Below, piece after piece: positions 42,401 to 64,000 of a DNA stretch of 64,000 nucleotides. A program made the position numbers and the translations under genes. This stretch comes from Botryllus schlosseri. Its lineage: Eukaryota. Location of the stretch: assembly GCA_051294905.1 (NCBI GenBank), contig CM119372.1:24864001-24928000 (forward strand). The letters are read 5' to 3'. Under the pieces are notes generated by a model, which was given only the letters and a program-made list of their open reading frames with translations, was not told the origin of the DNA and ran no database searches. How positions within the stretch are numbered: position 1 is the first letter of the stretch; every line of letters starts with the position of its first letter.

Positions 42401-45400
42401 TTCAACCTTTTTCGTTGTGGTACACCCTTCTAACATTTTCTCAAAACTCGTACACCCCTGACCGTATAATACACCGATAACGCCGAAAGCCGCATTTTGA
42501 TTACATATACAATACGTCCGGATTCCAACGGGGATTCGCCATGGCGCATGGACGACAAATGCTCATATGAAATTTGATACTGGGAACTTAACACCACGGA
42601 GAGCCCTTGTGGTGTTCTGTGCCTTCCCTTATTTTTTGAGATATGTATGTAATGCGCAAATTTTCTTACTGTAGAAGCAAAACATCCCAGCAGGCTTACA
42701 ATATATAATTTATGTACCAAAATCGCGAGTATAAATGTCAAGAAAAGACACTAGGAATATTTGTGTAGTCGCGCAGAGCGCGAAAATTTTGCCTCTTGAA
42801 TGAATTTCATCGAAAATGTTGGTAGTTTCACATATTATTGTCAAAAATTTATTAATTCTCAGCTCACGTGATCAGATTAACCCGTAGAGCTGATGGAGGG
42901 TGTTTTCGAAAATATTGGGTACAATATTAATGATGATGCATCTTGCGGTTCCTATTAATCACTCAGTTGCATGTTGTTATTTCTTGGCCTCCCACCAGGA
43001 TTGTTTGTATTGTTATTAATAATATTTTATTACACATCAATGACAGTGGTGATAATCGCCTGTTTAGAATTTGTGCGCAACGACAGTGCATTTCCTAAAG
43101 TTTAGTATTTTTGCTTTGGGTAATGAGGACGACTTTTGCTTGCACGCGCACTCCCATTCTTCATTCTCTCTCGCTAACGTGCGTCCACTTTCAGGACTTT
43201 GCTGCTGACTTTGAAGCTCGGTTAACTCTTCTTCTGGGCTTTTCAAGACGCTACGTTAACAGGGGGTCGGCGACGAGGAGCCTAGATAAACCTCCGACAC
43301 ATAGAAACATGGCAGAGCCGAGACTAGAACCAGTAACAATTGGTTACATAATGACGGCCGCCAACACACGCTAATTTAAATATGTGTAGAAGATCGCAAA
43401 ATTATGGTTATACGGCTGAATGAGGCCGTACGTCCGCAGGTTGAGCACCCCTGACGTAGCCGAAATAAGGATGGACATTTGAGCAAGGCTGCAACGTATA
43501 GTAAATGATAATACGAATAAGGGCTCGAGGTTACTGGACCACCATCTAACGCAGTGGTTCGCAAACTCGACCCCGTGGCTGCGTAAGTAGGCTATGTATT
43601 CTGCACTATTCATAAGCTGGCCGCAGGAAGCACAAATTCAAAATGTCCGAGATTTAGCGGTGGTTTCCTCGAGAATCATCAGAATGATAACCCAAGCTGA
43701 ACACATGCTAACTCCACCCTGCTCTACTCGAAAAGGAAGTAATAAGTCCATTACCAAAGGTTGAATGATTAGAAACATTTGCTTATGACATACATTGTAC
43801 GATATTTCACATCCAGTCATTCTGTTTTGAAGCATAAACTGGCGTATTTTTGTGATAGCTATAGTCATCGTATCATCGGTTCATCATAATGTGGATCTGG
43901 TACACCCCTGTACACCCCATCCGAGTGGTACACCCTTTGAAAATTCTGGTACACCCTAGGGTGTACGACAACCCCGGTTGAAGAGCACTGGCCTAACAAA
44001 CAAGTTAACTGCTACATAGTGAAACATGCAAAATTTTCAGGTTAAATTTTGTTTTTATGTTTACATTCATTATATATTCAGGCCTCTAAGTTCAAGCATT
44101 CCCACCGCCCCGTTCATTCTTCTAATGATGCGCTTGCTTCTTTCAACGAGACCAAAGGCATGTCATTACCTCGCCCTGCATCTCGGGTATGGTGTCAGGA
44201 AATCGTTTTTATTTCACTTCTCTTCTGGGAAAAGTAAATGTCTTTCTAGTATATTTATTAGATGTTCTTTAAGGTTCAAAATGGTCACTGTTGTTTTTGA
44301 CAACTGTTTTGAGAACCTGACTTCATGGATGGTTATCATCTTTCGATTGAACAGCATATAATGCAGCCAATGCAAACCGTGTGTGAACCTTGTGCTTATT
44401 ATAGTATTCTACATATAACTACGTATTCAAAACGAATCAATCAGTGATGTGTGATATGAAGGCATGTATGCGATGTGATCATCATTCGGTTGCCATGATA
44501 GGCTTCAGTAATAGGATAACAGTCTGGTGTATTGTCTGGTAGTTGAATCGGTTTTGCTTCTAAAAATGACACAAAACTGTGTAAAAAGCTCTCGTTGTGC
44601 GATCAATAAATTTCATTTCGTCAATTTTATTTGATGAATTGTTCTAAGAGGAAAGTATTCATTGAAAAAAATGACAGTGATAGTGATCAAAATCTGCTTA
44701 AGTAAACAACCATAGTAGAAGTACTTTGTTACAGAGCTACTCTCCCAGCAACATTTTCCGATACGTATTCTATCTGAATATATTGTATTGTTTCAGGTCC
44801 AGTCCAATGTTAAAGTCGAAATAAAAGATGAAGCAAGAGAATCAAATCCCCGACCCGGCAACATTCACGAACCACTTTCCACTTCCGTAATCATTGACGA
44901 TACCCAGAAAACAGATTCCTCTAAAGTTGATTCCAATCAGAGTACGTTTGTAGAGTGCAACAACGTTACAGAAGGTGAGTGGATGAACACTGTTGCATAG
45001 GCAGAAAAATGAAGCCAAACGCACACTGACTTCTTTACATGCAAGTTTCACTTCTGTAGATGGTCATGACTACTCGTAGCTCAAGATATCTTCCAGCAAA
45101 TGATTTGTAACCGATACCAGTGTTATAAGAGTCATCAACTTTGACTTAATGTTGGTTTTATGTGCCTTTATATTGCAATGCAACCCTATCCTAGCCTAGC
45201 CTCTGATCCCTATTCGTTGGAGCCAGTCAATCTGGTTACTTTAGCTGGAATTCTGTTCACCTCTAGTAAATAGCAAGTCATCGTCATTGCATTAGTATTT
45301 CGTATGATATCCACCAAATACAAATGAAAAGCTGGATAAGAATCCCCTTAAGGCTGATGGAATGGATCAGTGGTACCCAACGTGGGCGAAATTGTCCTCA

Positions 45401-48400
45401 GCGGGAAATTTCGTGAAAGAAGGGGGCAAAAATGTTAGAATGTCCAGTGAGATGTATTTAATTAACACCGCCAAAAAACGCACGTGAACGCGGTTTATTC
45501 TGCATATGACGTGATAGTTGACTAAACATGGTCACCTCAACGGAAAGTAGAAATCTGGTTTTCCTAGCACCAATTCGGAAAAATGACCATTTTTTTCGTC
45601 AATTAATCAGCGATCAGATTTATGTGGATAAATTTCTCGTTTACACGTCCTTTTTTACGGATCCGTAAATAGGAAGAGCGAAAATCTGTGCCGAGCTTGA
45701 TAAGGGGGCAATAAGTCGAAAAAGGCTGGGGACCATTGGAAATTCATTGATTTATCTTCATTTTTTAGATTTTTCAAAGAAGCTTATCTTGTCAGAGGTC
45801 AGTGGCGATTACTTATTATTATGTATAGAATAACTCATTCGTATTCGGTGAGGATAGACCTACACTGCAGTGTAAATGTAGGCAAAGCAACCTCAATTCA
45901 TGACATATATGAAATCATTGCACGGTGTTTGAGTCACTTTTTTGTGGTTTTGTGTTTTAAAAAATGTGTCGCTCTATTGCAGGCGCCACAGCACAGCCCA
46001 TGCGTGTCATCCGTATTTGATACGAATGCAAGCCCAGGCCCTTGTCAAGATAAAGGTAAAATGCCTATTTTCATGATTTATATAGTTATTTTGTTTCTAT
46101 TTCCTCCTGGGAACTTGTGGCTGCGCAACAAGAACAATCAATCAATCATTAGTGGACTTATGAACATAAATTGCTTGAAGCAATTAATGTAAGAATTTTT
46201 CTGCGTTAGAAATTATTTATGGTACACTAGGTGTTACTGCAGTAATCTGCAGGGTTTAGTGTAGTGATTATTGTCATCAGTTGATTAGGCGCCCCGTGCA
46301 TTGTCCTTTATATATGTTGATTGGGCGTCGCCTCTTTAGTTTATTTGGTTTGCTGATGTACGTTGTTGCTTAAGTTGCGTTATGTGTGGTCGTCATAGTC
46401 AAAACTTACGTTCTTTATCGTGCAGGCTTGTCTCTACCTAACTGTAACCGCAGGCGACCACTATTTTAAAACCTAATTTCACGACCCAGTTTCATTTGCT
46501 GTATTTGGACATTCCTTCGTTACATCAATTATTGCAATACATATCATTTCTACCTTCATTTACGGATCGTCATTTGTCTGGATCCGTCGTGGAATTTGAG
46601 TTCAATTCAAAAAGTTGTTTCAATAACTCTCCTTAAGTTAGGAGCAGTTACACTAGGTACACCTATTTTCTCTTGTGCATTTGCTGTGTCTGCACTAAAC
46701 TTACATATGCGATTCTGTGTAGTAAGTGAAGTGACAGCATAAATCTCTACTCTAGTAAAAGTGGCAACTTCCAAGTAATTAGAAGAATAAACATTTTAGA
46801 CCTGAAACCAAAGTCTGAAATCATAACCAATTGAGTAAGTAATGCAACTTGGCAAAACTTTAAAATACTAAAAATACTTTGTTACTAATCGCCTCTGTTT
46901 CTGCATCAAATTCATTAATATATGTCGCTGTGCGACACAACTTCATTTTAGTGTTAGTTGGTAATATAGTAATTTTTACTGTGTATACTTGTCGACTGTT
47001 TCGTATCAACTTCACATTATACCCTCGCACTGTTATCAGGAATGACGCCCAAGCTGGATATTTCAGGCAGCTCCAAATCATTCAATTTCCAAACCTCAAA
47101 GGACACTGCCAAAAGCCCTGGTGGGCTCTTCCGATTTCAAGATTGTAACTTGGACGGTGTCAACAGTTTCATGTTCACGCCATCACAGAATTTGACGACA
47201 CCGCCGAAGAATTTGATGGACTTTTCATTGAATAATAGCAGTTGCGGAAGTGCAAAGGACAGTCCTTGTTACCGTTCTAGAAACTCAAAAAAGACTAGGT
47301 CACAGACTTTGATTCGTAGCAAGGAAGGCCATTCTCAGTCAAAAAGTATCGAAACGTCTGGGTTGTCGCAGTATTCGAGTGGCAGCACTGTGCTTAAAAA
47401 GGACATGTCAATGATACGGAGTGAACAGACCAATACGGATAAACACACGAGTTTCGATATGAGCCCAGGCAGCGATCTAGCGTTTAGAAAAGATGAGGAA
47501 ATATCATTCACTAAATCCGATAAGACTCAGACAAGAGTGGCAGAGCATACAGATAAGTTTCAGTCTGAATATCCGCATTTGGGGGTTACTTGTCGTAATA
47601 GTCCTTTGACAAGCCCGACGTTGAAAAGAAGAAAAACAGCCTTACCGCGCGTTGTCACGCCCTCTATCCCAGAACATGGTCCAAACAAGTTTGAAGTAAC
47701 CAGGTTGGAAGCAAATGTTAGTAATGAGAGCCTCGTGGAGATGAGTCCAGATCAGATCATGAAACGAATGGCCGCGCACCGAGGCGGCAGCTCGGAGAGA
47801 CTAAACGTGGAGAAGACGGCTAGTCCGAAACCTCGTGTTCAATTTTTGAATGATGGAAATGTTCTCGACAGTGACGCAACGAAAAAGCGACCATTCCATT
47901 TTGAATCCAGGCTGGCCGAGCTTCAGGGCGTGCGTATGTCTCCGGCTTCTAAGGATGACTCGTCAAAATTGGTTCGTTTCCGCGGATCGCAACAGTTTGA
48001 CGCAGCCCGAGATTTTGGAAACCACCGTCGACGGTCGATTCCTGTCTCGAATCCGGAAAGCAATGCTATGGTCAGTCAGTCGTTCATTTATTGATATTTT
48101 TAACTACCGGTATTCAAAAACACCGGAAGATTACGATATAATGAAACTATAAGAGAATGTCGAATCACTAATTTTACCTGTCTTGACCTAAAACTCCCTG
48201 ACTGAGACGTAATAGAAGATATCATAAAACAAGAGATGAATGCGGCATGTTGTCGTTAGGCAAAAATCGATATGGTGATTTTGAATTTTCAATTCAGCAT
48301 GTGTTAGGATTTATTAATTGTTTCTTTCCTTCCAGTCTCCCTTTTTGGTGTCTGGACAACAGCGATGGAGCTTATCTCCTGCGGAAATAAACGCAGTGGG

Positions 48401-51400
48401 CTGCTACTATCCGGAAGAAATAGCGAATTGGTCGGGAACAGGGCCGTTTATGAGTAACGTGTCGCCGAGAAATTTTCACATCATGCCGATGCTGCCTTAT
48501 CCAACTGGCTTTTCTGGTATGTTTTTTCGTTTCTCTCGTGTTAGCAATTGGTAGTGCAGCGATATTTTTCAGGGAATGTACGCAGTTCTAATGCTGGAGG
48601 GAGTTCGGAGAATCTAGCTCTACCGGCGTCTGACGAGGTAACCAATAATTTCACCATCAGTACTGACGACAACTCGGCGTTGTGTCTTGATTGATAGTAT
48701 ATCTTCATAATGCGATAAATGGGTTGAGAGGCCACGAACATTGGTGGTTTATGCTGTTGGATTTTGTGGTGAGAGATATTCGCGCCCTGTCTGAATATAT
48801 TTCTCAAACCAATACAAAGCTATGTGTTTCCCTGGTGGTCGACCAACCAACTGATATAATCAGTGATGATGTATCGGCAAGATAAATCGATATGAACCGC
48901 AGAATGTTGATCTATTTTCGATCCTGCAACACTTTACCTGATTACTGTTTTTGTGGTATGAGATAATAATAACTGATGATGTCCATGCAAATAGCTAGAT
49001 GAAGACTGACTAAAATTTGTTTTCGTCTTTCAATTTAGAAATCTGCTATCACCGCTGAATCGAAAATGAAAGACGGTGAGAAACTTATGTTTGATGGTTA
49101 TTATATTTTAGTTCAAGAAAAATAGCACAATCCACAGGAGATGGGTCATGATGATTGCGATCCTTAAGCCCAGGCTGCACTCCAATGTCATCTTCTATGA
49201 GGAATAGGACCAGACATGGGATGGTTACTTCATGAATGTAATCGATTGCGATTACGATTACTTCTTAATCACGCAATTACTATTACAGCAAAATCTGGAA
49301 GTAGCCGATTAAATCACGATTACATTTATTTTGCTTCTTGGAATTTATCTTTGAATACACATTGGAAGACAATATAATGATAGCGATGAGAAGGCCTCAT
49401 GTGACAACAATTATCATTTTTAATCTGACGTCATCTGCGTGTTACGTCACAATATACCCATTGCTCAACAACGATTTATCGCCATTAACGCTTTGCATTC
49501 TAGCCAGGGCCGTAACTGCCACACTCTAAACCCGCATATTGGGTGGGGCGAGCTGAAAGGTGGCCCGTCATCAATTATTTCGTAAATCAACCCAATTATA
49601 GGGTATATTTTTGAGTGATTTATTTTACTAAAAATGTTCTTCGCGATTTAATGTCGCTATATCTTGATGTAAATATGCATACCCCTCCCCCAAAATATGT
49701 CTACTGCCCGTAGCCGCACTGAATGACCGTGAGGAATAGTCCTGTCCTGCCAATCTTAGCCCTACAGTACAAATGCCACCGGGGCCCCCACAGAGGAAAT
49801 GATGCACACTTGATGAAATGACAATTTCTGTTTGCGTGTCACGAAAGATGTTTTTTTAGTTCAGTCTGGTACGTTTGGGGGACTCCAATATCTTTTAATT
49901 TTATATCAGACGGGAGGTCACGAATTTATAACATGCAGCAAAGTAATAATAACAACCAGCACGCCCGAATATGTTAGAATTATTAATTACGTGCCCTAAA
50001 TTTTTGCAGTCACCACCTCCCTCAGCTCTACCGGTAAATCTAATTACATAGTCGGAGAGAGGATGAAATGAAAATGAATTGCAATATATTCAATTTCCAA
50101 TGTTATTGACGAAATTCAGTAATGAATCAGAAGTTTGAATGATCACCCTAGGAGGGTCCAAAACCAACGTTTGGGGGAACGGCTGACGTAATGTTGTATC
50201 AGCACAGATTCGGGCCACAACCCACGCTAATATGGTGCAGGTGACTGCGGTGACTGATCCAAATTTTGAGTAAAGAATTTTGAAATAGGGGTAACGATTA
50301 GTGCTTCCACTTAATACAGATATTGCGAGCTGCTGTTACGAGTAACGAAATTCGTGGTTCTTACAATCGCACTATATTACTTGTCTATTGACTTTATGTG
50401 GATAATTCGTTATGCAACGGCGAGCAAAGTTAATACTCTTGACGTAATAGTAAGCAATGGAGTTTGAAAATCCTACGCTTCTGCAAGCAACCTGGTACAA
50501 TTCAATTCAATTTATTGCTGCAATTTTCATCATTTCAATACACACCTAGACTGCGCTACAATGAAAGATAGGAAGATGTCGAAACGACTTGGATTAATCT
50601 TCGAAATCAGACACCCACCTGGCCTAGGCGATGTAAAAAAGGTTGCATATACATTGCACAGTGCACACTGAATGAAAAGTAAAAGAAGATAATATACAAG
50701 GATGGTTGACAAAAAAAGGTGGCATGTGTCGGAAGGCGAGATCAATATGTCAGGTCGTGGTCCGGTAAACTAGAGGATTAACTAGTATTATATGTATACT
50801 GTATATAGTATATAGTATATACAATAGCGCTCTCTTTCTTGTTCACAAATGCTCAGTTTTCAAGTCATAGTCCTTGTACAACTAAAAGTAATCGTTCTTT
50901 CAAATACAAATCGATTAGATATGTGAAATAATCCATTACGAGTCCTACTGCGGATTTTTTTCGAATGTAATCGATTGCGATTACGATTATTTGAAAATGC
51001 TGTAATCTTTGTGATCGATTACGATTAGTGATCACGATTAACATATGTCTGAATAGGACGCTATTTATTTTTGTCCTTGGTGATTTTTGCAGCGTATACA
51101 GTCTATGCACCGACTTATGATATGACGTAGGCTACACCATGATCTGTGCAGTGTGAACTGCATAAGTGCATATGCATAGGCTACCATGAGGGCATGGTGT
51201 GCATATGCCGCTGGACAAGGAAGGTGCAGAAATACCCTTGTAAGGTTTTCACCACCTCTCCATGCTATCTTGATAATGCTCTTCATTCAATGTGCGTGCA
51301 TGACTCTTCTTGAAATCGCCCCGGCCCAGACAGGTGTCTGATCTCAAAGACTACTCCAAGTCGTTTCGATGCTTTCCTATCTTTTAATTGTATATCAATC

Positions 51401-51753
51401 TTGTGTATTTGATATGGTGAAATTAGTAATTAATAAAACTGATACTGACGAGTTCGATTTGAATTAGGATTAGAGCCGAATTTATGATTGCATTTGCAGT
51501 ATTGATAAATGATCATTGATGATCGTATATAACAGAGAGAGATTCTGCGGAAGGCCCAAAACGCAGGAAGTGGCGGCAATGTCTCAGCGAAAAGGACGAC
51601 ACGGAGGTCTGGTGGATGCCGCAGGAATGGGCGAATGATCGCGGAATTGGTAGGAGAGGCGACAAAAGCAACGAGAACAAGGAGAGAGAACTGGAGATTG
51701 CCAAGGATGCAAATATTGAAAAAATCAGAATGAACCGATTTGTTCCTTTGTAA
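36454..51753 (+). CDS. Uncharacterised ~901-aa Ser/Thr/Pro-rich, probably disordered protein (13 exons)
   Basis: Exons 36454-36903 (GC donor), 37707-37768, 39006-39210, 41861-41932, 44082-44186, 44797-44974, 45769-45797, 45983-46055, 47040-48070, 48336-48516, 48573-48637, 49039-49075 and 51536-51753 are all phase-compatible. They total 2706 nt ending in TAA, with AATAAA near 51817. No family recognised. Confidence 0.75.
37899..38200 (+). mobile_element. Decayed hAT 5' end with a GTF2IRD2/SPIN-like transposase N-terminal remnant
   Basis: Starts CAGGGATCTCACAC...GGCCGCG. Near 38125 a frameshifted C*VFRDK-WNESYY-like remnant is visible. Confidence 0.45.
38293..38748. repeat. Tail-to-tail pair of LINE-3'-end/SINE-like repeats (family D)
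   Basis: Core CCTATCTTTTCATTGTA and its reverse complement, with (TGAT/TGAAT)n tails. Other copies at about 50498-50785, 51330-51465, 54170-54420 and 54614-54800. Confidence 0.75.
39316..39615 (+). mobile_element. Penelope-like retroelement fragment (GIY-YIG endonuclease region)
   Basis: LPWLG...KDVLPACQQSNIVYDFKCHCDCRYVGRTTQRLQERHKRH fits the VY-C-C-YVG-T-RL-R-H pattern of Penelope-like element endonucleases. Confidence 0.85.
39774..41465. mobile_element. hAT (Charlie/Buster-type) element carrying an inverted family-C array
   Basis: TIR CAGTGGTTCTTAACCTT...AAGGTTAAGAACCACTG, exact TSD CTCTACAA. The interior (about 39885-41160) is the reverse complement of family C sequence. Confidence 0.9.
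42393..43990. mobile_element. Composite hAT element with nested SINE and MITE fragments
   Basis: TIR CAGTGCTCTTCAACC...GGTTGAAGAGCACTG, exact TSD GCCTAACA, GGTACACCC subterminal repeats. The 3' part matches about 12920-13237. Confidence 0.9.
49211..51051 (-). mobile_element. Second, inverted family B element in the last intron of the unassigned gene
   Basis: Ends CAGACATGGG...CATATGTCTG, exact TSD AATAGGAC. The interior is an inverted homolog of 32702-35285 plus a nested family D copy. Confidence 0.88.
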
Positions 51754-52215
51754 TTGATGGACATATGTACTGTAAAGCGTTGTGTTTGATGGTCATCCTT
51801 GTCGATATTCTTCTTGAATAAATACTTACCGTTATGTGAGTTTTTCGGGTGGCTGGCGTTGAGGAGAATCTCTGATCATGTACCTAAATTGGCAGAAGAA
51901 TTCTTCAAGCTATCTTCAAATATATCGGACTTTTGAGTGGTGGATTCATGTAATGTCAATTGCATAAGGTCGGCTCTGTCTGATACGCAATGTTATGGAA
52001 TTCTGCTGTTGTTCTTACGGTGACAAAAAAGACCCGATAAAGCAAGAAATAACTTCTAAAAAAGGAACCGACGAAGAAGACTAACATCGCGGGCACTAGA
52101 TCGAGGTGGATGTCAGTTCAAGAGACCCCAACTGGTGGTCGTTCGGCATCCCTCTATCTGGTCATTACATCGCATTGTGTGTCTTGTATATCGCATTGTG
52201 TGTGTGTGTGTAGGG

Positions 52216-53268
52216 CAGGGGTCACCAACCCGGTGCCCGCGGGCACCAGGTAGCCCGCGAGGACTAGATGAGTAGCCCGCGAGCCCATTCTAAGAATAGG
52301 TGGAATAGCAGCATTTACCAATATTCGTCAGATTATTACCAATGAGCTTTTAAGTGTAGATCGATCGATTCAGCTATTCTTGTTTAAAACACACTAACAT
52401 GTAACTTACATATATAAACACTTAAAAATATCTTCTATTACAATTAGTTATATAGATATGTGATAGAATCACCATAAATTTAACATACGGCGCATTGCCT
52501 ATACAGGTGACATGACTGAATGCCCCACGGTCTTCTTGAAATGGTTGAGGGTTCCGTTACGATAGCTCGACGACCAGGACAATGCCACAGTAGTAAACAA
52601 TATTACTATTAGGACTCAGATAGCCGTGAAGTACTAGCAGATTTTCAGTATCTGTATACCCACTACGTATTGCATCTTTTGGCACAGTTTGTTTCTGTTA
52701 CACTCAACGCAGTTTAACATACCATGTTTCTAATTTTCCGTAATCGTTGCTGCTGTCCGGTATACCGTATAATGAAGTCTTGTCATTTCTGGATGCCGAA
52801 CAGTAGTAGGAGACTGAAATTGTAACACTGCAAAATGACCCCGCCTCACTGTGCAGCAACGTTTGTTGCATTGTTGATACGGAAAAGTACAGTGGTGTAT
52901 GCGCAGCAGCTATGAAGGTTGCAAGCGTCTATGGTTCAACTTATCGTTGTGAATCATGCTTTTCGGGCATGAACTTCATCAAAAACAAACACAAAACGCT
53001 TATTTATTGCACATCTGGAACACTCACTCAGAATTGCAATGTCAAGGTGAATACCAGAGTACAGCGCACTAGTTCATATCATACAATGACAGGCTTCCCA
53101 CTGACTGCTATAGAAACAGGTAACATGATGTCCAGTCCTGCCCAGTGCTATGAATGTCAAAGCGGAAATTCGGTGTGACGTGGGTAAACGGCGGGAGTAA
53201 ATAGTAGCCCGCCGCTTCAATCATTACGCAAAAGTAGCCCTCGGTTGCAAAAAGGTTGGTGACCCCTG
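52216..53268 (+). mobile_element. Internally deleted hAT transposon with a transposase C-terminal remnant
   Basis: TIR CAGGGGTCACCAACC...GGTTGGTGACCCCTG, exact TSD GTGTAGGG. The ORF at 52912, KVASVYGSTYRCESCFSGMNFIKNK, is the hAT dimerisation-domain signature (GTF2IRD2/SPIN-like). Confidence 0.92.
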
Positions 53269-55112
53269 GTGTAGGGGATATAAAAATATTATCTGGCCAT
53301 TGATTGATTGCTGTCGCCTACGCTTGGGTAAGATTTGCCCGGGTTTTCAACATCAACATGATTTTATTCCAATTTGTGAAATTTATAAATTGGTTGTAAT
53401 TTTCTATGCGTAGGCTAATTACTTCGTTGATGTAGTGCTATATCGGTGTGAGATCAAATTGCCTCGTCTTGATAGTTGACATCGGGCAGTAGACCGAGGT
53501 GGATGCTTGATCAAGAGACCGCAACTGGTCGTTTCGGCATTCTCTTCTATCTCTTTACGCAATCGCATTGTACATCGTGTGAGCATAGCAATTTACAGCG
53601 TACGCAGCTACGCTGTAAATTGCTATGGTGTGAGTGCGCTGGGCAGATGAAAATATAATCTGACAATTATTATTATTATATTTCGATTTTGTGTTCGCAT
53701 TTGGTATAGATGTAATAGTTGGCTTAGAATAGGCTTCATCGAGATATGATTGCATTCAATCAATATGCGTTGACAGCATAAGACTACTAACTGAACAGTA
53801 TGCTACAGTTTATTCGCGTCCTTCTAGTTATTTCTCAATGACATCCTAATACACTCATTATTCTCAATATTTAAGTGATACGAATCAGACAGAATGTGCA
53901 AACGTCTCGTGGAATTTGATGGGTATCCGGTGTAAATTTTTGGCATTTATTTCGAATGATCGTGATATATCTGCGGCAATGATTGTATAATGTATATTGT
54001 GCACGTATAGGTAGCCCAGCATTCAAGCAAATCCATAGTATCAGTAGAGACCTCCGTTGACTTCGGCGTACCCGCTCTCAACTTCACGGCCGCAGCCGCT
54101 GCACTTCAAAAGCGCACATGATAATTTCGCTGTATAAGTTTAGATACGTACACTGTAGTCGTCCTCTTTGGTTTATTAGCAATTTTAGCAGTTCAATGCA
54201 CCACAAAATGCAATACGATGAAAAGATAGGAAGGTTTCGAAGCGATTTGGACAAGTCTATGGAATCAGACACCCACATTGGCCTAGGTGGCGTAAAGAGG
54301 AGGCATGCACTGCGACTGCACAGTGCACACTGAATGAAAAGTAAAGAAGATAGTTATAGGAAAAAGGCAAGCGACAAGAAATGGGGTAGGGTGGCATGTC
54401 ATGGAAGGCGACAATATGCGGCATTGCGTACGTTATCGTCATGCTACTGTCTCACCGTGTACACCTGGTATCAGGACCACCACCACCCTAGTTACTTGAC
54501 TTACTTCCCATTCTCAATATCTTTCTAACCGTATTTTGTCGCTACTGTTTGCTGAATATAGGTTGATTGATTCGATTCGAAATAATGTGAACCGTGGACT
54601 TTCGTCAACAATAATTCAGTTCATTTCATTTAGAATTTTTATCATTTCAAAACCTCACAAGGCTGCAATACAATGAAAAGATAGCAAATATGACTAAATA
54701 GGGCCTACTTGAGTCGTTTCGACTCCAATCTTTTCATTTTATTGCAATCTTGTGGTGTTTTGAGTTGATCAAGTTATTAATAAACTATAAATGGAACTGA
54801 ACCTGGCGTATTATATAGGGTTACCATAAGTCCTCTTATAAGAGGATTTGTCCACTTTTTTTACTTCTTTGAAAATGTCCTCGGAGGACGCCCTTGCCCT
54901 TTTTTTTTTCAGTCAACCGATCACAAAGTGGGAAAAATATACAGTATTTGAGAATTCTTCTCCGGTTTTGCAAGTCTCAAAATTCTGAAAAAGTGTCCTC
55001 TTTTTAGATTTCCAAAATATGGTTGGAAAGTCTGCCACGCAGGCAATTCCTAAGAAAGGATGCCATGTTTTGTCACTATGTCAATGATTTCTGATGTGTA
55101 CAGGTAGGCCTA

Positions 55113-56124
55113 CACTACAAAAATATGAGGCAAGTTTGGTTCCAAAAGTCAAATTTAAGACATGAGGATGAATTTGTCTCATTTTCAGCAATTTCAGTCC
55201 TGCTGATGAAGTGAGGTCTTGAAATTGAGACTGATTCAGCTTTTCAAGACCATACAAAATTGTCATGATCATTCGGTCTTCAAAATCAGACCAATAAAAC
55301 ACATCTTATAAGACGTACCGGTATTGTGCTTATTGAGACATTCTTTGATTCATCCGTTTCTGTGGTCTTGTTTTCAAGACAAATTTCGCTAATCCAGAAA
55401 TAACATGGTTCTTGGTCTTAAAAATGAGACCGGAAAGTTGAGATGGGCCAAGAGGATAAAATTAGACAAGTTTGATCTTAATGTCTCCAATTGATTTTTA
55501 GCAGAAAAGTCTTCAAGACCAACTAGTCTTACCATGTTCTTTCTGTATCAAAAGTAAGACCCAAATTGATCGATAATAGAAGCAGTGCTTTGGGGGCATC
55601 CTTTCTAGTGTTAGGTTCCTAGTGAAGGAGGAGATTGAAAGAGACCATGGGAAAATACTGCGCTAAGGACTTCATAGACACAGCTAGCTTATTGAGATAA
55701 TTTTTGATGCTTCATTTTTTTAGTCTTGTTTTTAAGACAAATTTTGCAGTTTTTTTGCGTTGTTCTGTTAATATTACATGTTGAGTGGTAACTGGCATGT
55801 ACCTTAATAACGTTATCTAGTGAATGTCTCGTAAACTCCTTAGTACACTATCATCCCAACACTGCAAATTCAGGTCTCTGTCATGCTTCCCCTTCACTCA
55901 GAACCTAACACTGAAAAGGATGCCCTCAAAGCACTGATACTATTTTCGATCAATTTGGGTCTGACTTTTAAGACTGAAAGTACTTGGTAAGACTAATTGG
56001 TCTTTTAAACTTGTTTGCTAAAAATCGATTTGAGACAGAAAGTACTTGGTAAGACTAATTGGTCTTTAAGACTTTTTCTGCTAAAAAATTGATTCGAGAC
56101 ATTAAGACCAAATTTGTCTAATTT
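55113..56124. repeat. AAGAC/GTCTT-rich inverted repeat structure, possibly CACTA-derived
   Basis: Arms 55459-55646 and 55873-56124 are diverged reverse complements. The right arm has a ~60-bp tandem duplication. CACTACAAAAA lies at 55113 and TTTCTAGTG at about 55610. Confidence 0.65.
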
Positions 56125-56243
56125 ACCATAGTTTTCTGTGAAAACTCGTTTTGGTGTAATTGTAACTAATTTGGAAAAGTATTCAAACTTTTCTGTTTCT
56201 TATACCAGGACCAGGTACTGATAGGTATCCTAATTTGAAAATC

Positions 56244-58964
56244 ATGGGCGACAAAGCAAAACTTTTCGAGCCATATCGGGCTCTTGGGCTGTACTCCTCA
56301 CACATTCCGCACTGCACTCGTTATCATCAAAAGCATCAAGAACATTACGTGTTTGTTGCCGTGGGAAAGGTTTTCCATACTTACAATTGCTCAAAACTGA
56401 AACTCACCCAAGTCAGCAATGCTCATCCGGAGGATATTTCATGCATTGCCGCCGATCGATTTTTGGTCTATACTGGCTGTGGGAATACAGTACGGGCTTT
56501 TCAGCATAACAGACAAGTCAAGTACACATACGAAGGGCACAAGGATGAAGTTCATTTGATCCTACCGTTTTCTGAACATCTGATAACGGTTGATATATCC
56601 GGTGCGGTTAAGATCTGGCATATCAATTCTCAAGAACTGTATCTTGATATGGAATTCGACAATAAATCCTTTCAAATTACATCCATTCTTCATCCTTCTA
56701 CGTATGTAAACAAAATTCTGTTTGGTTCGTCCCAAGGCACCTTACAATTGTGGAATATCAGAAAGAATGTGATGTTGTACACGTTTAAGGACGTGACAGA
56801 CACGTCGTCGGTAGTCTGCATGGCACAATCGCCTGCAGTGGATGTCATTGCAATTGGAAGGTCAAGCGGAAGTGTAGTCATTGTAAATATCAAATTGGAT
56901 CGAGAAATCATGCGCTTTGTGCAAAATGAAGATCCGATTGTCGGGATTGCTTTTCGGCTGGATGGGCCTCCTACGATGGTGACAGGTGGCGGGCAAAAAA
57001 TCTCAGTTTGGGATTTAGAAGAAAAACGTTTGCTTTCCGTTATGGAGCGCGTGCACAGCGATAAAATCGCCGGAATGACATTTTTACCTGGTCAGCCTGC
57101 GCTTCTCACAAATTCTGCGGATAATAGCGTGAAAATGTGGGCTTTCGATCAGAGTGATGGCTCCGGACGGTTACTGAGATACCGGGCTGGCCACAGTCTG
57201 CCGCCGACTAAAATCCGGTTTCACGACGAAACTAACATCATATCAGTCGCGTATGATTCGACAATGAGAATATTCTCACTCGAAAACGAACATCTAGTCA
57301 AAAGCATGGGGCAGGCATCCACGAATCGTGCCATGGCTCGTAGAGCCGCCTCACATTTAGACAAACGCAAACTACCGCCTATCGTAGATTTTTCGTCATC
57401 AACAGCCAGACAAAGAGAATGGGACAACATCATCGCGTTTCACCATAAGACCGCGATCGCAACAACTTGGAACTTCCACCGTTGCAAAATGGGAACATAC
57501 AAGTTACTTCACGAGCGATTCAGGAATTTGCGCACGACTGCCAAAGACAAAAACAAAGAAAAAAAAGTCGGTGTTTATGTGACCGCCGTTACTTCGACAC
57601 AGTGCGGAAATTTTTGCCTTGTCGGCTACAACACGGGCCATGTAGACATTTTTAATATGCAATCTGGGTTACATCGCGGCACCTTTGTTGACGCCGATTT
57701 GACTAGTGCACACACCCGGCAAATCTGTGGGATCGCTGTCAATCTACTCAACCAAGTTGTGGTGACTGCGGGAAGCGATAATTCCCTGAAATTCTGGAGG
57801 TTCAAGACCAAGAAACTAATAGAAAAGATTGAAATTGAGTCGAAACCTTCGATGCTGAGTCTTCAAGGCGAGAACTCGCTGGTGGCAGTTGCTCTTGATG
57901 ATTTCTCTATTCTCGTGTACGATTTGGATACAAGGAATTTGGCGCGTCGTCTGACCGGCTTTCGAGGCAACATCACCGACATGACATGGAGTGCAGACGG
58001 CCGCTGGCTTGTGGCGGCTTCCATGGACTGCACGATCAGAACGTTCGAGTTATCGTCGTCCAGCTTGATCGATTGTTTTCTAGTCGACACGCCTGCGGTC
58101 ACTGTAGCACTGTCTGTGAATGCAGATGTACTCGCTACGTGTCACGTCGATGATTTGGGCGTGTTTTTGTGGTACAACTCTTCCATATATGGTCGTGTAT
58201 CACTGGCTCCGCTTCCGTTGGATTATCATCCTACCAATGTCGTGGAGTTACCCGCGTCTGAAGTTACAGATGGCGACGTTGCAGAATCGGAATGTCAAAC
58301 TTCAAAAGAAGTTACGCAGGACAACGATGATGCACATTTGGCAAAGCCATTGGATGAGACTCTTGTCACAACGTCGGGATTGCCGTCTACAAAGTGGGCT
58401 CATTTGGTTTCGCTCGATATCATCAAAAAGCGGAATAAGCCAAAACAGCCCGTGAAGCAACCTAAGTTAGCGCCGTTTTTTATCCCTACGGTCGCCGGAT
58501 TGACTCCTAGCTTTGATATCAGCGGCGAGGAGAAAGATTCTAAGATCGTCAAGCCGATGAGTTTGATGCCGTTGTCGAATTTTGCTTCGTCATTACTCGA
58601 CCAAGAATCTACCTCTAATCAATTGACAGCAATGAACAAATTGAAAGAGATGGGCCCATCTGCTATTGACGCGGAGATACGAGGCCTGGCGTCCGAATGC
58701 GGCGGCTCTCTCGAAGTCATGTCTGGCTTTCTCAAGCTGATTCTGTCGACGTTGAAATCAAGGAGGGACTTTGAATTTGCTGAATCGCTCCTTGCGTTGT
58801 TTATGAAGGTGCACGCTGGCGACATTGCGTCTGACCCGATACTGGTGGAACTCTTGGAAGAAATCGAGATTGAACACAAGACGTGTTGGGATTCGCTCAG
58901 AAAAGATATCGATCAGAGCATATGCCTTCTTAATCACATCAAAGCTGTTAATTCGCACGCTTGA
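56244..58964 (+). CDS. WDR36: WD repeat-containing protein 36 / UTP21 (SSU processome), single-exon ORF of 906 aa
   Basis: Uninterrupted ORF. N-terminal LFEPYRALGLYS, motifs REWDNIIAFH and QCGNFCLVGY...FNMQSGLHRG, many WD repeats, and the Utp21 C-terminal KRNKPKQPVKQPKLAPFFIPT. First ATG at 56244. Confidence 0.97.
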   Translation: MGDKAKLFEPYRALGLYSSHIPHCTRYHQKHQEHYVFVAVGKVFHTYNCSKLKLTQVSNAHPEDISCIAADRFLVYTGCGNTVRAFQHNRQVKYTYEGHKDEVHLILPFSEHLITVDISGAVKIWHINSQELYLDMEFDNKSFQITSILHPSTYVNKILFGSSQGTLQLWNIRKNVMLYTFKDVTDTSSVVCMAQSPAVDVIAIGRSSGSVVIVNIKLDREIMRFVQNEDPIVGIAFRLDGPPTMVTGGGQKISVWDLEEKRLLSVMERVHSDKIAGMTFLPGQPALLTNSADNSVKMWAFDQSDGSGRLLRYRAGHSLPPTKIRFHDETNIISVAYDSTMRIFSLENEHLVKSMGQASTNRAMARRAASHLDKRKLPPIVDFSSSTARQREWDNIIAFHHKTAIATTWNFHRCKMGTYKLLHERFRNLRTTAKDKNKEKKVGVYVTAVTSTQCGNFCLVGYNTGHVDIFNMQSGLHRGTFVDADLTSAHTRQICGIAVNLLNQVVVTAGSDNSLKFWRFKTKKLIEKIEIESKPSMLSLQGENSLVAVALDDFSILVYDLDTRNLARRLTGFRGNITDMTWSADGRWLVAASMDCTIRTFELSSSSLIDCFLVDTPAVTVALSVNADVLATCHVDDLGVFLWYNSSIYGRVSLAPLPLDYHPTNVVELPASEVTDGDVAESECQTSKEVTQDNDDAHLAKPLDETLVTTSGLPSTKWAHLVSLDIIKKRNKPKQPVKQPKLAPFFIPTVAGLTPSFDISGEEKDSKIVKPMSLMPLSNFASSLLDQESTSNQLTAMNKLKEMGPSAIDAEIRGLASECGGSLEVMSGFLKLILSTLKSRRDFEFAESLLALFMKVHAGDIASDPILVELLEEIEIEHKTCWDSLRKDIDQSICLLNHIKAVNSHA

Positions 58965-59400
58965 ATGTGACGTATAGCGGTAATTGTTTGAGGGGTATTT
59001 GAATACGCTTTAGGAAATGTGAATCATGTTATATTCATGTAACAATGGCAATGTGAAATTACGCACCACAAGGAGGTTTTTGAATGGTGCAATATCTTAT
59101 ACTGTGTAAGATGATTGGTTAACTTGATGCGGATATTATGGAACTGTTGTTTCACGAATTCGGTGTTAGCTACTTGATGTGATTTGGTTGCAAATATGGT
59201 TTGTTTCGGAATTTTGCATCTGTTAATGATTCGGAACGTTAGATTATCTTCGAAATCACTGCCTTTTCTGCGAATCAATTTGTCATTGGTGCCTCACAAT
59301 TTTCATCTTGTCATTTTCGGATTTCTCCAGATTTTAATGTAGTTCTGGGCCCGGGTGGAAGTACAGTACTCTTGCAGACGCTTTTACAAGGAATAGTTTG

Positions 59401-62400
59401 ATGGGCCATGCTGCCGATCCAAAGGACAGGAATGTGTGCGGTTGTTCTGAAAAAGTGGCAGGACCGTTTGATGCAACAAGACTTCATCTGCTCTTTGGCT
59501 CAAAGGATAATGTGGATAGGTGCGAGATTATTTTTTCGATCACGCCTTTCGATTGCACTTTGTAACAATGCTGTGTGTTGATCGCGACTTCATAAGTATG
59601 AAGTTTCCGCCAATGTGTGTAGCTTCGTACTAGACGTTTCGTATACTGTGATACGACAAATCGAGGGTTGAAAATATATTGATACATGAACTCTAGTGAC
59701 AAGGAGTGCATAATTTCAGTAGGTAACCTACTCACTATTCGACTCAAATAATTGAAATTATTGCTCGAATCATTGTCCCAGCTCTACAATTTACCCATAA
59801 GCTACAGCTAGATATATATATATGTATATGTTGAGAGATGGCAAAGTATCTTTGAGCAGAATAACTCCCAGCCATATAACCATTCCATAGCTGTTTCAGT
59901 TACATGAATATTGTTCCATCTGCTTTTCCGTGCATTACTGCATGTGGCAATATCTATCGGCTACTGCTGTGCTGTGGGATTTATTGGTCAAGTGGACTTC
60001 TTTTTATCAGAAAGGCGTGGCTGAAGACGTACGGGCTCGTCACGTCAGATGATATGCTTCCCCAATATCGAGAACTGCATTTGCATGCGGGATATCGACC
60101 AATCCCCTCGTCTTACAGCTACTGTATCAAAAGGTAAAAGTTTCTGAGAGTTGAATCGAAACACGCTAGGTTTGAATTTCCGTTCTGTACGTTCTTGAAT
60201 AGCAACTGCCAACTAGCCTTGTTTCATTACAGAATCCGTTCTGGTAATTCTCTGTAAGATTTGACTTCCTGACAACATAGCAAGCAAAAGTGCTTTATAA
60301 GCCTGTGCTTCCCGACCTTTTTCGTTCGTGACCCACTTTTACCTCAATGTTTCACTGTGCGACCCAGCATGAGATATGACCTAGCATATGAGAAAGTAAT
60401 TCAAATTACAATGAGTCTTGTGAGTGACAGTAGAATAAGACGCCCACAAGTTAAATTGTGCGTCTGTTTGAGAATACAAGTGTCTCAAGCTGACAAGAAT
60501 GCTCGTAATGGTGGATTACAAACGACGAAGCGGGTATTCAAGTAGTAATTCGTCGTTTACGTCTAACATAAAAGGGTCTCGAGTATTGTTTGCTGATTAC
60601 AATCGGGCTGGATTGCATTTTCCAACCAACGTTCGCAGTTTCACGGCGTACACAAAAACACACCACTGTCCAATTTCACACTCTCATAAAAATGACCGTC
60701 ACAAATATCTGGTTCATCAATTATTGTAAGCATAGGAACGTGGCTTTAATTCAGAGTAGCAGAACGGGTATGAGCCCGTCTAATCGTAAGAAGTTTCGGT
60801 GTTTAGCATTTTTTGCAAATTGGACAAAAGACCGTAACATTTAGAAATTCTATGCGACCCACCAGAGATAGCTTCGCGACTCACCGGTTGAGAAGCACTT
60901 ATATACCGGTAAGCCATGGTAGTGATATTGATTAGTCAGTTGCTCTTGTTACATTCAATTTCTTAATCTTTACATAACTACTGTGTCCCTTATTTCGGAC
61001 ACATAAAATTTTCCCAGCATTTCAAAATGCTGGTATAAGATAGGTTTTCATCTGCCAACCTGTGGCCCGCGAGAAGGTTTTGAGTGGCCCACAAGATAAT
61101 TTTAGAAATTATTAATATTACCAAAATATAAATAGCCCATGCAATTTATTCTGAACCTGCAAGGCCACCCAAAAATTTGATAACTATATTCGCAATTATG
61201 AGAGAACGAGTCGTCTAACATGCGACTTCACTGGCACGCTCGCAGAAATATCTTCCGCGATAAAATCTTGACACAAAATGATGGACGCATGTTGACCAAA
61301 CCTTTCTCCATTGATAAATCCTGGAGCCTCATAGTCCTGCCTTGGCAAACTGAGCCCGGCGGTTTACAGAGGCGACCTGTAATATATGCAAATAACAATA
61401 ATATTGACTGAATCCGTTCATTTATTAACTTTGCAAAATGTTCGCCCTTCACTCAGCTAGAACATAAATACACGCTAAGTTTTCATGGCATAAAAGTAAT
61501 CGACAAGTCTTGCTTTCCCTGTTACCTAATCCGACTTGCTCCGATCTGACCACGAAAAGGGATAATCAACATTCCAGTGGCCCATGTAATGATTCATAAA
61601 TTTCATGTGGCCTCATGGTCGTAAAGGTTAGCCACCCCTGCCTTGGACTCAGATGTTTAGTTAAGTTATTGAGTTGCAGAATCACAATTGCATTTGACAA
61701 ATTTCTGTGCTGTATACTGACAATTTGATGTTTATTTTTCAGCATCTTCTATCCGACTAATGAGACGTTCAATTTTTGGACTCATTTTATATTTCTTTTC
61801 ATTCTCGCGAATCGGTTTTGGTTGATAGCCAATGGACTCCAGGGATCAATTTTTGAAGCCATTTATGTTCCGATCATCATTTATGCTATCGGTGAGTATT
61901 CTACCTGTGATCTTCAACATTCACTCACCAAAGAAACTCTATCGAGAGAGAGAGATTGAGGTAGGTGTTTTGTTAACGAAATAGACACAGTTACAAAATA
62001 GAAATTGACATTTAGTGTAGCAATACGATCGTAGGTTACATCCCTCGTCATCCAATCAGTTGAACCTGCATTTTGAAGTATTAGGAATTAGGAACAAAAC
62101 TAGCAATGTTTTTTCATAAGTAAATAAAGAGCGGACTATCGGGGAGCATTCTAAACCTTGAACAAGGGGACAATGAATATTAAATTACATAAAAACCAAG
62201 GCCAGTTTGATATAACACGCAGTCCGTATACAAGGCTTCTGCTAGCAACATTCCTATCCCATGACCAAGCATGATGCAAACGATAGCCTTTCAAATTTTC
62301 CTATTCATCTTGAGGTACATGCATGATGCTGATTGGAAGCTGTCTTGCCCATGTCTTCTGCAGCGCATCACACAACGTGCGTGAAAGCTGTTGGTTCTGT

Positions 62401-63877
62401 GATTATGCCAGTATCACGCTCAGTTCGCTTGGAAGTGCTATTGTTTACAATAACTATGTCTGTCCATACGAATGTATCGGCGTAAGGATCCGTGAGTATG
62501 GAGTTACCGTGTATTGCCAGCTAGTACGGTTACATTTACCTAGATTTGATTCTGTCATCAACTATGCTCAATTGCTCAGCGAATTGTTCAAGAGTTATTA
62601 ACGCTTTCTCGGGTCGCTTGGCCAATCCTAAAATTGTTACCTTAACCATATGGAGTGAGCATAAAATGATTAGATGTGATCACTGAGCACACACACTAAA
62701 CAGTGATTCAGCAAATTGCAGTGTGAGATTCTCACAGGTGTCATCAGGTCTCATCTATCCCACACTCTAGAGAACTGATTAGAATCCTTGCACAATATTG
62801 GTCAGTTCTAGATATCACACAATTCAACGTGTTCATTATTTCGCAGCAAATTTGATGCTAATACTGGGAGTTGCCGGGGTGGTCGGACATGCGGCTTGCT
62901 GCTACTCACGGAGAATGACTTCGAAACTGAGATATCTTCTGAGAAGTTCCGTCTTTGTTGTTTTATACATGGGCTCGTCAGTACCATGTGGAATTAAGTA
63001 AGCAATCGAAGAGTTTGCAGTTTGTGAAGAAGTGGTTTATGGAGAAATACCTTAGACATGATAGGCCATTTCTTGAATAAACACCTCGTCGGATTGCAAA
63101 AATGGCCTCGTAAATATAATTTGCAGCAAGGACCCCAGTCGCTCCATATTTCCTTGGGCTGGTACCACATAGTCGGGGAAAGGAGAGTTGTGTTACAAAA
63201 CCTTCCGTAATGATGGATATAATTGTAATTTGAAAATGTCGAGTTGGTTCAAGAGCTTGTTGAATATCTGCTTTCTTCCCAGTAGTAGGCCTACCTCAAA
63301 CAAGATCAGCTAAATTTTACAGATGTCTCGATCTTTGACATCTATCACCAAAAACATATGCTCATGAGTTGGAACACTTGCCACTATCTTTCCTGCTCTC
63401 GCCCGCAATGTTGTGAGTCTATTATCTAAGTTCCATATACTCAATACCCTCTATGAGAGAGAGTATGGTGGCTTCTGTGTGTGAGTTGCATCAGCGGATC
63501 TGTGATCCATACAATGATTTGGCCATTGAAGTTTTATGCCAGATGTTCTTCCTGCCGCAGCCAGCGGAAATCGAACCCAAGACATCTGGTTTTCGCGACC
63601 AGGGGGGTAACTGATGAGCTAGGTTGGTTGTCGCTAAAATACCCAGTTTGATATATTTCATAGGAATCTTTGTAAAGAATATCTCTTCTTAACAGATATT
63701 TATCTATAGCCCTCTCAAACGATAGTTCAAGCAACGGCACACTTTTCACGGAAGACATTCGCTGTCATCTCGATGACAATCCTGGAGAAAATGCCACCAA
63801 TTTCCTATTAGTCACTGCATTTTGTGCCCTGACCGTCTTCTTCAATGTATCTAAGATTCCGGAGAGATGGTTTCCAG
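59401..63877 (+). CDS. PAQR family class II (membrane progestin receptor gamma/delta-like), 3' end beyond window
   Basis: In-frame exons 59401-59519, 60011-60133, 61743-61891, 62315-62491, 62847-62997 and 63696-63877. PAQR motifs GYRP, TNETFNFWTH, SCLAHVF, CDYASI and KIPERWFPG. Closest in motif style to PAQR5/6; the paralog is not resolved. Confidence 0.9.
63470..63628 (-). mobile_element. Degenerate tRNA-derived SINE in a PAQR intron
   Basis: The minus strand has TAGCTCATCAG (A-box-like) and GGTTCGATTTC (B-box-like), followed by a GATCCGCTG tail motif also seen near 21660. Confidence 0.5.
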
Positions 63878-64000
63878 GTACTATTTATTATTGGCTTACT
63901 TCATTGACTTATTCTATGAGGGTTCCATTTTGGTTGACTTGAGTCACTTTCGAAAAAGATTTTGTTTGTGGTTTTCAGTTTTGGTAAATTTTGGGCACAT

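What the first reader, a model, noticed from the sequence alone, without database searches (positions are those of the whole stretch)
56160..59519. Candidate SL trans-spliced operon: intronless WDR36 followed directly by a PAQR progestin-receptor gene
Seen: WDR36 stops at 58964 and the PAQR ATG is at 59401 on the same strand. Between them is a long pyrimidine tract ending TTTCTCCAG at about 59330, and I find no AATAAA. WDR36 itself is preceded by a branch point (CTAAT, about 56166), a pyrimidine tract and CAG (56208), with no evident upstream exon nearby, only repeats. Established: Ciona operons are resolved by SL trans-splicing, lack intercistronic spacers and are enriched in single-exon genes. 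Inference: a ribosome-biogenesis factor and a membrane steroid receptor are co-transcribed. An alternative is that both share a distant 5' exon, with WDR36 nested in PAQR intron 1.
Basis: partly seen in the sequence, partly recalled or inferred. Interest (0 to 1): 0.7.

Follow-up and report, generated by a model that had tools for sequence, protein, structure and literature searches.

The report
Sea-squirt WDR36–PAQR two-gene operon
In a sea squirt, an intron-free ribosome-assembly gene (WDR36) and a membrane-receptor-family gene (PAQR) sit 436 bases apart with RNA running across the gap; they are likely one transcript cut in two by spliced-leader splicing, an ordinary arrangement in sea squirts, though the leader itself was not seen.

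Summary
The coordinates are confirmed. WDR36 is one 906-codon ORF (56244-58964). A PAQR gene starts at 59401, and its first five introns are GT-AG and seen in RNA. A WDR36 tree places the animal beside Styela clava.

For an operon: one RNA contig starts at the WDR36 acceptor AG with 3 non-genomic letters and runs without a mismatch across the gap into spliced PAQR exons. The S. clava orthologues carry consecutive accessions (XP_039266834/835), so the pair is probably conserved.

Not shown: leader letters at either site, use of the 59330 acceptor, and absence of an internal promoter. The missing AATAAA is chance-level (77% of 436-nt windows lack it). A rough model of the 3'-read pile puts WDR36 RNA ends about 90-200 nt past 59330, which does not fit an exact no-spacer boundary there.

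Verdict: probably an ordinary Ciona-type two-gene operon (about 0.7); about 20% of Ciona genes are in such operons. It noted SL splicing elsewhere in this genome and similar candidate operons in other genomes.

The parts
51536..51839 (+). Last exon of the separate upstream gene (unidentified protein), with AATAAA at 51817; likely polyadenylated at 51839, so not part of the unit
   Evidence: RNA contig record 1 aligns 51535-51839 and has 6 unaligned letters after it; AATAAA position
55328..56124 (.). Inverted-repeat (MITE-like) element ending 84 nt before the WDR36 acceptor; would lie in or next to the WDR36 outron or promoter
   Evidence: Arms 55477-55646/55873-56042 (83%) and 55459-55499/56084-56124 (88%)
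56166..56208 (+). Branch-point-like CTAAT (56166), pyrimidine tract and CAG acceptor of WDR36; likely trans-splice acceptor
   Evidence: Sequence and ranking; RNA contig begins at 56207 with 3 further letters that do not fit the genome (table 8)
56209..56243 (+). 35-nt 5' UTR of WDR36
   Evidence: Covered by the contig; no upstream ATG
56244..58964 (+). Intron-free WDR36/Utp21 coding sequence, 906 aa
   Evidence: Pfam PF25171, PF25168 and PF04192 above cut-off; 62% to Styela clava WDR36; colinear RNA contig
58965..59330 (+). WDR36 3' UTR (G+T 0.61, no AATAAA), ending in the candidate PAQR acceptor (tract 59300-59328, AG 59329-59330)
   Evidence: transcribed in the four runs laid; acceptor use not seen
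59331..59400 (+). Candidate PAQR 5' UTR, with an ATG-TAG start-stop at 59337-59342 and weaker alternative acceptors at 59377 and 59390
59401..59519 (+). PAQR coding exon 1 (40 codons), followed by a non-consensus donor GTGCGA
   Evidence: Joint 59517>60009 GT..AG in the contig and in 2 reads of X22; peptide similarity to the Styela N-terminus not significant (127 of 2000 shuffles as good)
60011..60133 (+). PAQR exon 2
   Evidence: Joints; tblastn to S. clava protein 54%
61743..61891 (+). PAQR exon 3
   Evidence: Joints; frame check; tblastn
62315..62491 (+). PAQR exon 4
   Evidence: PF03006 at 28.1 bits against a cut-off of 26.2; joints
62847..62997 (+). PAQR exon 5
   Evidence: Joints; tblastn 69%
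63696..63877 (+). PAQR exon 6; the gene continues beyond the window
   Evidence: Contig joint 62997>63696; tblastn 54%; donor at 63878

Best explanation
WDR36 and the PAQR gene are likely one two-gene transcription unit (operon) of a styelid-type sea squirt, likely split into two messenger RNAs by spliced-leader trans-splicing; RNA crossing the gap is shown, while the leader and the single promoter are inferred. Steps: (1) Polymerase starts somewhere upstream of 56166 (inferred; the start is not mapped). (2) Something short and non-adjacent is spliced onto 56209 (the junction is shown by the contig end; that it is the SL is inferred). (3) Transcription runs through the intron-free WDR36 ORF and across the gap into PAQR (shown at contig level). 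(4) With no donor known to be used inside WDR36, the first acceptor after it is unpaired and takes the SL, giving a capped PAQR mRNA translated from 59401 (inferred; the best-looking site is 59330, alternatives are 59377, 59390 or the exon-2 acceptor 60010). (5) Other molecules are polyadenylated without AATAAA to give WDR36 mRNA (a 3'-read pile is shown; the exact end is not mapped and may lie past 59330). The pairing is probably a way to borrow a housekeeping promoter, not a sign of shared function (inference).
For: Contig record 2 of run X1 (3590 nt, depth 39, 0 differences) covers 56207-59517, 60009-60131 and 61741-61893. Its 5' end falls on the acceptor AG with 3 unaligned letters. It is spliced at GT-AG introns, and intronic bin 60502-60942 has depth 0, so it is RNA-derived. 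S. clava WDR36 is XP_039266834 and the best PAQR match (55% over 260 aa) is XP_039266835, both on a 25,587,678-nt record; adjacency is inferred from accession order. The B. schlosseri genome paper reports extensive microsyntenic scrambling among tunicates (PMC12448946, abstract and passages), so kept adjacency is informative. The architecture matches Ciona: 60% of 5'-most operon genes are single-exon (PMC2760879, section 10) and 16 of 18 operons lack AATAAA (PMC1488885, passage). Trans-splicing is stated to occur in B. schlosseri (PMC3691228, passage citing its refs 20-22). The upstream gene has its own end at 51839, which bounds the unit.
Against: No leader letters were seen: the loose-end table showed only repeat-derived rows (679 rows hidden). 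Nothing shows that 59330 is used as an acceptor or as a 3' end. A contig across two genes does not prove one molecule; an overlapping WDR36 3' UTR gives the same graph. Read-pile model: of 18 parameter sets, 5 reproduce the upstream gene's pile, and these predict a bin ratio of 0.10-0.21 for an end at 59330 against 0.92 observed, fitting ends near 59420-59525. X1 also has about 14,500 depth-bases of extra contigs in 59179-59619, including one inside PAQR intron 1 (joint 59571>59619). The missing AATAAA is chance-level. In Clavelina, WDR36 and the closest PAQR found (34%, possibly a paralogue) lie on different records. Background gene-order conservation with S. clava around this locus was not measured.
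Confidence: 0.7

Rival explanations
1. Two independent genes that overlap tail-to-head. PAQR has its own promoter inside the WDR36 3' region (with or without a short outron and SL), and the WDR36 3' UTR runs over PAQR exon 1 or reads through now and then.
For: The 3'-read pile is centred further downstream than an end at 59330 predicts. Extra contigs lie in 59179-59619 and in intron 1. The gap is G+T-rich (0.61 against 0.51 for the window), as Ciona outrons are (PMC11155486, passages), and the mean putative outron there is 438 nt (PMC4691747, passage). The Botryllus fuhc pair, 227 bp apart, gives linked transcripts but no SL (PMC3691228, passages).
Against: A promoter embedded in the neighbour's 3' end also explains kept adjacency, so this is hard to exclude. 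Against it: the single-exon first gene whose contig starts at an acceptor is the typical operon layout (PMC2760879). No start-site pile was listed in the gap (table 6, low power).
Confidence: 0.18
2. WDR36 and PAQR share a distant 5' exon by ordinary cis-splicing, with WDR36 nested in PAQR intron 1.
For: The junction at 56209 is only shown to be non-adjacent; a cis exon ending in AG would look the same at the contig end.
Against: The contig extends only 3 letters beyond the AG, where a normal exon would be expected to extend it. None of the 15 listed joints links a place in 50800-56208 to 56209 or 59331 (32 weaker joints not shown). The upstream gene ends at 51839, and the 4.4 kb between holds several repeats.
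Confidence: 0.06
3. The unit stays a dicistronic mRNA and PAQR is translated by re-initiation or internal entry, without trans-splicing.
For: The contig is continuous from WDR36 into spliced PAQR exons, and no SL was seen at the boundary.
Against: The single-cell run piles 3'-type reads at the end of WDR36 with none in 59620-60060 and no read over the exon 1-2 joint, so most WDR36 RNA ends near the gap. The gap holds many upstream ATGs (sequence). SL resolution is the established route in tunicates.
Confidence: 0.04

Closest known systems
SL-resolved, intercistron-less operons of Ciona intestinalis (Satou et al. 2006, PMC1488885: passages and section 14 read; Satou et al. 2008, PMC2760879: passages and section 10 read)
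   Same: Two same-strand, functionally unrelated genes; single-exon first gene; no AATAAA; acceptor-like site before the second ATG; RNA across the boundary.
   Different: Here the animal is a stolidobranch. The SL is not directly seen. The first gene's 3' end is not shown to coincide with the acceptor and may lie about 90-200 nt past it, whereas in Ciona it coincided in all 19 mapped cases.
Botryllus schlosseri fuhc-sec / fuhc-tm tandem pair (PMC3691228, passages read)
   Same: Short gap between two genes of a styelid, with rare transcripts that link them.
   Different: For fuhc, 5' RACE found no SL on the second gene and read-through was favoured. The pair here has a single-exon first gene, acceptor-like sites at both 5' ends and probable conservation in Styela clava.
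WDR36/Utp21 (small-subunit processome) and PAQR/HlyIII-family membrane proteins (mPR-gamma-like by database label)
   Same: Pfam families met above cut-off; full-length orthologues in S. clava.
   Different: WDR36 is intron-free here (vertebrate WDR36 has many exons: recalled, not checked). The PAQR is only 25-37% identical to the non-tunicate PAQR proteins compared, which include vertebrate mPR beta and epsilon, and its ligand is untested.

Membership tests
Ciona-type SL-resolved operon | Transcription crosses the boundary between the two genes | tested here: met
   Unbroken RNA contig 56207-59517 spliced on into exons 2-3; one run laid as contigs; it does not prove a single full-length molecule
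Ciona-type SL-resolved operon | [quoted passage not shown] | tested here: inconclusive
   Loose-end rows for this place not shown (679 hidden, repeats ranked first)
Ciona-type SL-resolved operon | Upstream 3' end abuts the downstream acceptor (0 to <100 nt) | tested here: inconclusive
   3'-read pile lies over the gap; rough model places ends near 59420-59525 rather than 59330; no base-level end obtained
Ciona-type SL-resolved operon | No separate promoter for the downstream gene | not testable with these tools
   Needs CAGE/TSS-seq or reporter deletions
Ciona-type SL-resolved operon | Organism has an SL RNA | not tested
   No genome held. Literature passage for B. schlosseri (PMC3691228) and unchecked earlier notes on this genome say yes; Rfam found nothing in 51500-60100
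Ciona-type SL-resolved operon | Typical correlates: single-exon first gene, no AATAAA | tested here: met
   the AATAAA absence is at chance level
WDR36/Utp21 | Two WDR36-type beta-propellers plus Utp21 C-terminal domain, full length | tested here: met
   PF25171 361 bits, PF25168 455 bits, PF04192 170 bits; 99-100% coverage of the closest orthologues
PAQR (HlyIII) family | PF03006 domain in an intact frame | tested here: met
   Exon 4 above cut-off; 300 codons without a stop, 55% to the S. clava PAQR
Membrane progestin receptors (mPR) | Progestin binding and signalling | not testable with these tools
   Only the automatic name of the S. clava orthologue; no PAQR tree was built

The most novel reading that the evidence does not exclude
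An ancient styelid operon with a negative spacer: WDR36 mRNA ends inside PAQR exon 1 or intron 1, not at the trans-splice acceptor. Each transcript's fate would then be set by competition between SL addition at 59330, a weak first donor at 59520 (with SL possibly going to exon 2 and giving a PAQR shortened by 54 residues) and 3' end formation past the PAQR start. This would show that upstream 3' ends in ascidian operons can be made independently of the trans-splicing cut, which Satou et al. 2006 left open.
Probability: 0.2. Interest if true: 0.42.

Novelty: new member of a known kind. Interest (0 to 1): 0.22.

Why it matters
If right, it adds one more operon to a class that already holds about a fifth of Ciona genes. 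Its modest value is that it lies in a stolidobranch, for which my searches listed no operon survey, and that the pair seems to be kept between this animal and Styela clava. If that split is the styelid root, it is roughly 150-200 million years old (row #89 of Table 1 in PMC5899321, unlabelled; my reading). That makes it a usable test locus for how the upstream 3' end is made in spacer-less operons. No functional link between ribosome assembly and steroid signalling is implied.

Tried and rejected
No whole genome is held, so no genome-wide acceptor model, SL-gene search or paralogue check was possible. The run search listed no holder on record as RNA; 14 of 24 rows were guessed RNA and 5 were raw-read RNA runs added by species label. 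Shares of runs I did not lay are not used as evidence. The single read lay used 4 of 24 runs on 50800-64000; repeats crowded out the loose-end and joint rows at the two acceptors. Joint counts in X22 (2, 16, 2, 9, 0 along PAQR) are too noisy to show a second 5' end at exon 2. A word-based search with PAQR exon 4 found nothing; phmmer then found the S. clava protein. The PDB search gave only chance CTCF matches, rejected. Two metagenome scans for tunicate WDR36 loci found none. Exon-1 peptide against the Styela or Clavelina N-termini was not significant (127-159 of 2000 shuffles as good). Supplement searches for WDR36/PAQR names in Ciona operon or acceptor lists gave 0 hits. Those lists may use gene ids only, and one file each of PMC1488885 and PMC4691747 could not be searched, so the operon status of Ciona WDR36 is unknown. 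Paper searches: WDR36+ascidian gave 1 listing, WDR36+PAQR5 gave 1, mPR+ascidian gave 8; by title and abstract start none concerns this pair, and none was opened. Matsumoto 2010 is not held. Gasparini and Shimeld 2011 was seen only as a reference entry. The atlas gave only weak unnamed hits for the upstream gene's large exon. CpG ratios gave no promoter signal. An exon-3 boundary error was corrected.

Full report
Observation. WDR36 is a single ORF from ATG 56244 to TGA 58964 with all three WDR36/Utp21 Pfam domains above cut-off. A PAQR gene starts at 59401; exons 59401-59519, 60011-60133, 61743-61891, 62315-62491, 62847-62997 and 63696-63877 are separated by GT-AG introns and give 300 codons without a stop, and all five introns appear as RNA joints. 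The WDR36 acceptor is among the best 16 of 3412 AGs on the strand and the 59330 site among the best 34. The 59330 tract is 23 of 29 pyrimidines. The lack of AATAAA is not informative: 77% of 436-nt windows lack it too.

Organism. The closest named WDR36 is Styela clava (62%), against 48% for Ciona and Clavelina. A 14-protein tree groups the window protein with three unnamed relatives and S. clava at 100/100 support. No pyurid or molgulid was in the tree, so 'styelid' is likely and not proven.

RNA evidence (one lay, 4 of 24 listed runs). In run X1 one contig of 3590 nt matches 56207-59517, 60009-60131 and 61741-61893 with no differences. Its 5' end stops at the AG of the predicted WDR36 acceptor and carries 3 more letters that do not fit the genome; the letters are not displayed. 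That is what a short leader ending in AG would give, but a cis exon ending in AG cannot be excluded from this alone. Continuity through 59330 means that RNA molecules cross the site: if every WDR36 mRNA ended at 59330 and every PAQR mRNA began at 59331, no 31-letter word would bridge it. Continuity does not prove one molecule from end to end. The gene upstream ends separately at 51839, 17 nt after AATAAA, with 6 unaligned letters that are probably poly(A). The single-cell run X20 piles reads of one orientation over 58738-59619 (mean depth 48.6 and 44.7; 123 at 59113), with none in 58297-58737 or 59620-60060 and no read over the exon 1-2 joint. I read it as a 3'-end library from its read lengths and pile positions. 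So most WDR36 RNA ends in or just past the gap. Leader letters and poly(A) clips at the two acceptors were not visible, because repeat-derived rows filled the tables (679 loose-end rows and 32 joint rows hidden).

A result against the exact model. I modelled the X20 pile and calibrated it on the upstream gene. Five of 18 parameter sets matched the upstream gene. For an end at 59330 they predict a ratio of 0.10-0.21 between the two bins; the observed ratio is 0.92, which fits ends near 59420-59525. Shorter offsets would fit 59330 but miss the calibration gene. This rests on bin means, one library, one calibrating gene and a guessed repeat share, so it is a lead only. It agrees with extra X1 contigs in 59179-59619, one of them inside PAQR intron 1. 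Possible readings are a boundary at a weaker acceptor nearer the ATG (59377 or 59390), WDR36 3' ends that overlap PAQR exon 1, or priming on unresolved precursors.

Conservation. The PAQR's best match is the S. clava 'membrane progestin receptor gamma-like' protein (55% over 260 aa). Its accession is XP_039266835 and that of S. clava WDR36 is XP_039266834, both on a record of 25,587,678 nt. RefSeq numbers usually follow gene order (my knowledge, not tested here), so I infer that the pair is adjacent there too. Strand, gap and intron status in S. clava were not seen. In Clavelina lepadiformis, WDR36 and the closest PAQR found (34%) lie on different records; it may be a paralogue. Tunicate gene order is reported as heavily scrambled (PMC12448946, abstract and passages; PMC4122922, passages), but I did not measure the local background.

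Mechanism. Most likely (0.7) a single promoter upstream of 56166 drives a precursor. The SL is added at 56209. Downstream, an unpaired acceptor receives the SL to give PAQR mRNA, while other molecules are polyadenylated without AATAAA to give WDR36 mRNA. Shown: gene structures, the non-adjacent junction at 56209, RNA across the gap, 3' reads at the end of WDR36. Inferred: the identity of the leader, the PAQR acceptor, the single promoter. Rivals: independent overlapping genes with an internal PAQR promoter (0.18), a shared distant exon (0.06), an unresolved dicistronic mRNA (0.04).

Comparison with what is known. Ciona has 1310 candidate operons with 2909 genes, mostly pairs, and 60% of first genes are single-exon (PMC2760879, passages and section 10). 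The upstream 3' end coincided with the downstream acceptor in 19 of 19 mapped cases, and 16 of 18 lacked AATAAA (PMC1488885, passages and section 14). Ciona trans-spliced genes average three to four acceptors, and weak first donors favour trans-splicing at the first cis acceptor (PMC11155486, passages); this bears on the non-consensus donor at 59520. The Botryllus fuhc pair warns that a short gap with linked transcripts need not be SL-resolved (PMC3691228, passages). The locus works like a Ciona operon. Membership is not complete, because two defining features (SL on the second gene, abutting ends) were inconclusive, and none was tested and failed. Supplement files that I could not search, or that list gene ids only, may hold the operon status of Ciona WDR36.

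Verdict. The feature is real and probably an ordinary ascidian operon: a new member of a known kind, interest 0.22. The open point worth a cheap follow-up is where the WDR36 mRNA really ends.

Noticed in passing
window 55328-56124: An inverted-repeat, MITE-like element ends only 42 nt before the WDR36 branch-point-like motif, so it lies where the outron or promoter of an essential gene would be expected.
   Followed up: partly
window 59337-59342: An ATG-TAG start-stop element sits 6 nt after the candidate acceptor, out of frame with the PAQR ATG; acceptors at 59377 or 59390 would leave it out.
   Followed up: no
window 59520-59645: A low-depth X1 contig lies in PAQR intron 1 with a 47-nt stretch (59572-59618) replaced by one letter; an allele, retained intron or extended WDR36 3' end.
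   Followed up: no
window 36400-51839: A multi-exon upstream gene, extent read by eye from the sequence, with a large Ser-rich exon (46973-48094); no Pfam family and only weak unnamed atlas hits.
   Followed up: partly
window 11300-24000: Exon-like frames that look like a CLUH/clueless (TIF31) gene; the name is recalled from the translations and was not tested.
   Followed up: no
window 52090-52178 and 53483-53571; 51182-51223: Short interspersed repeats that draw many RNA reads from copies elsewhere (thousands of loose-ended reads at 51182-51223 in X22).
   Followed up: no
window 39319-39756: A frame that resembles the GIY-YIG end of a Penelope-like retroelement (recalled resemblance), apparently decayed.
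   Followed up: no
window 61864-63630: Low-depth X1 contigs cover PAQR introns 3, 4 and 5 but not most of introns 1 and 2, suggesting partly spliced PAQR RNA.
   Followed up: no
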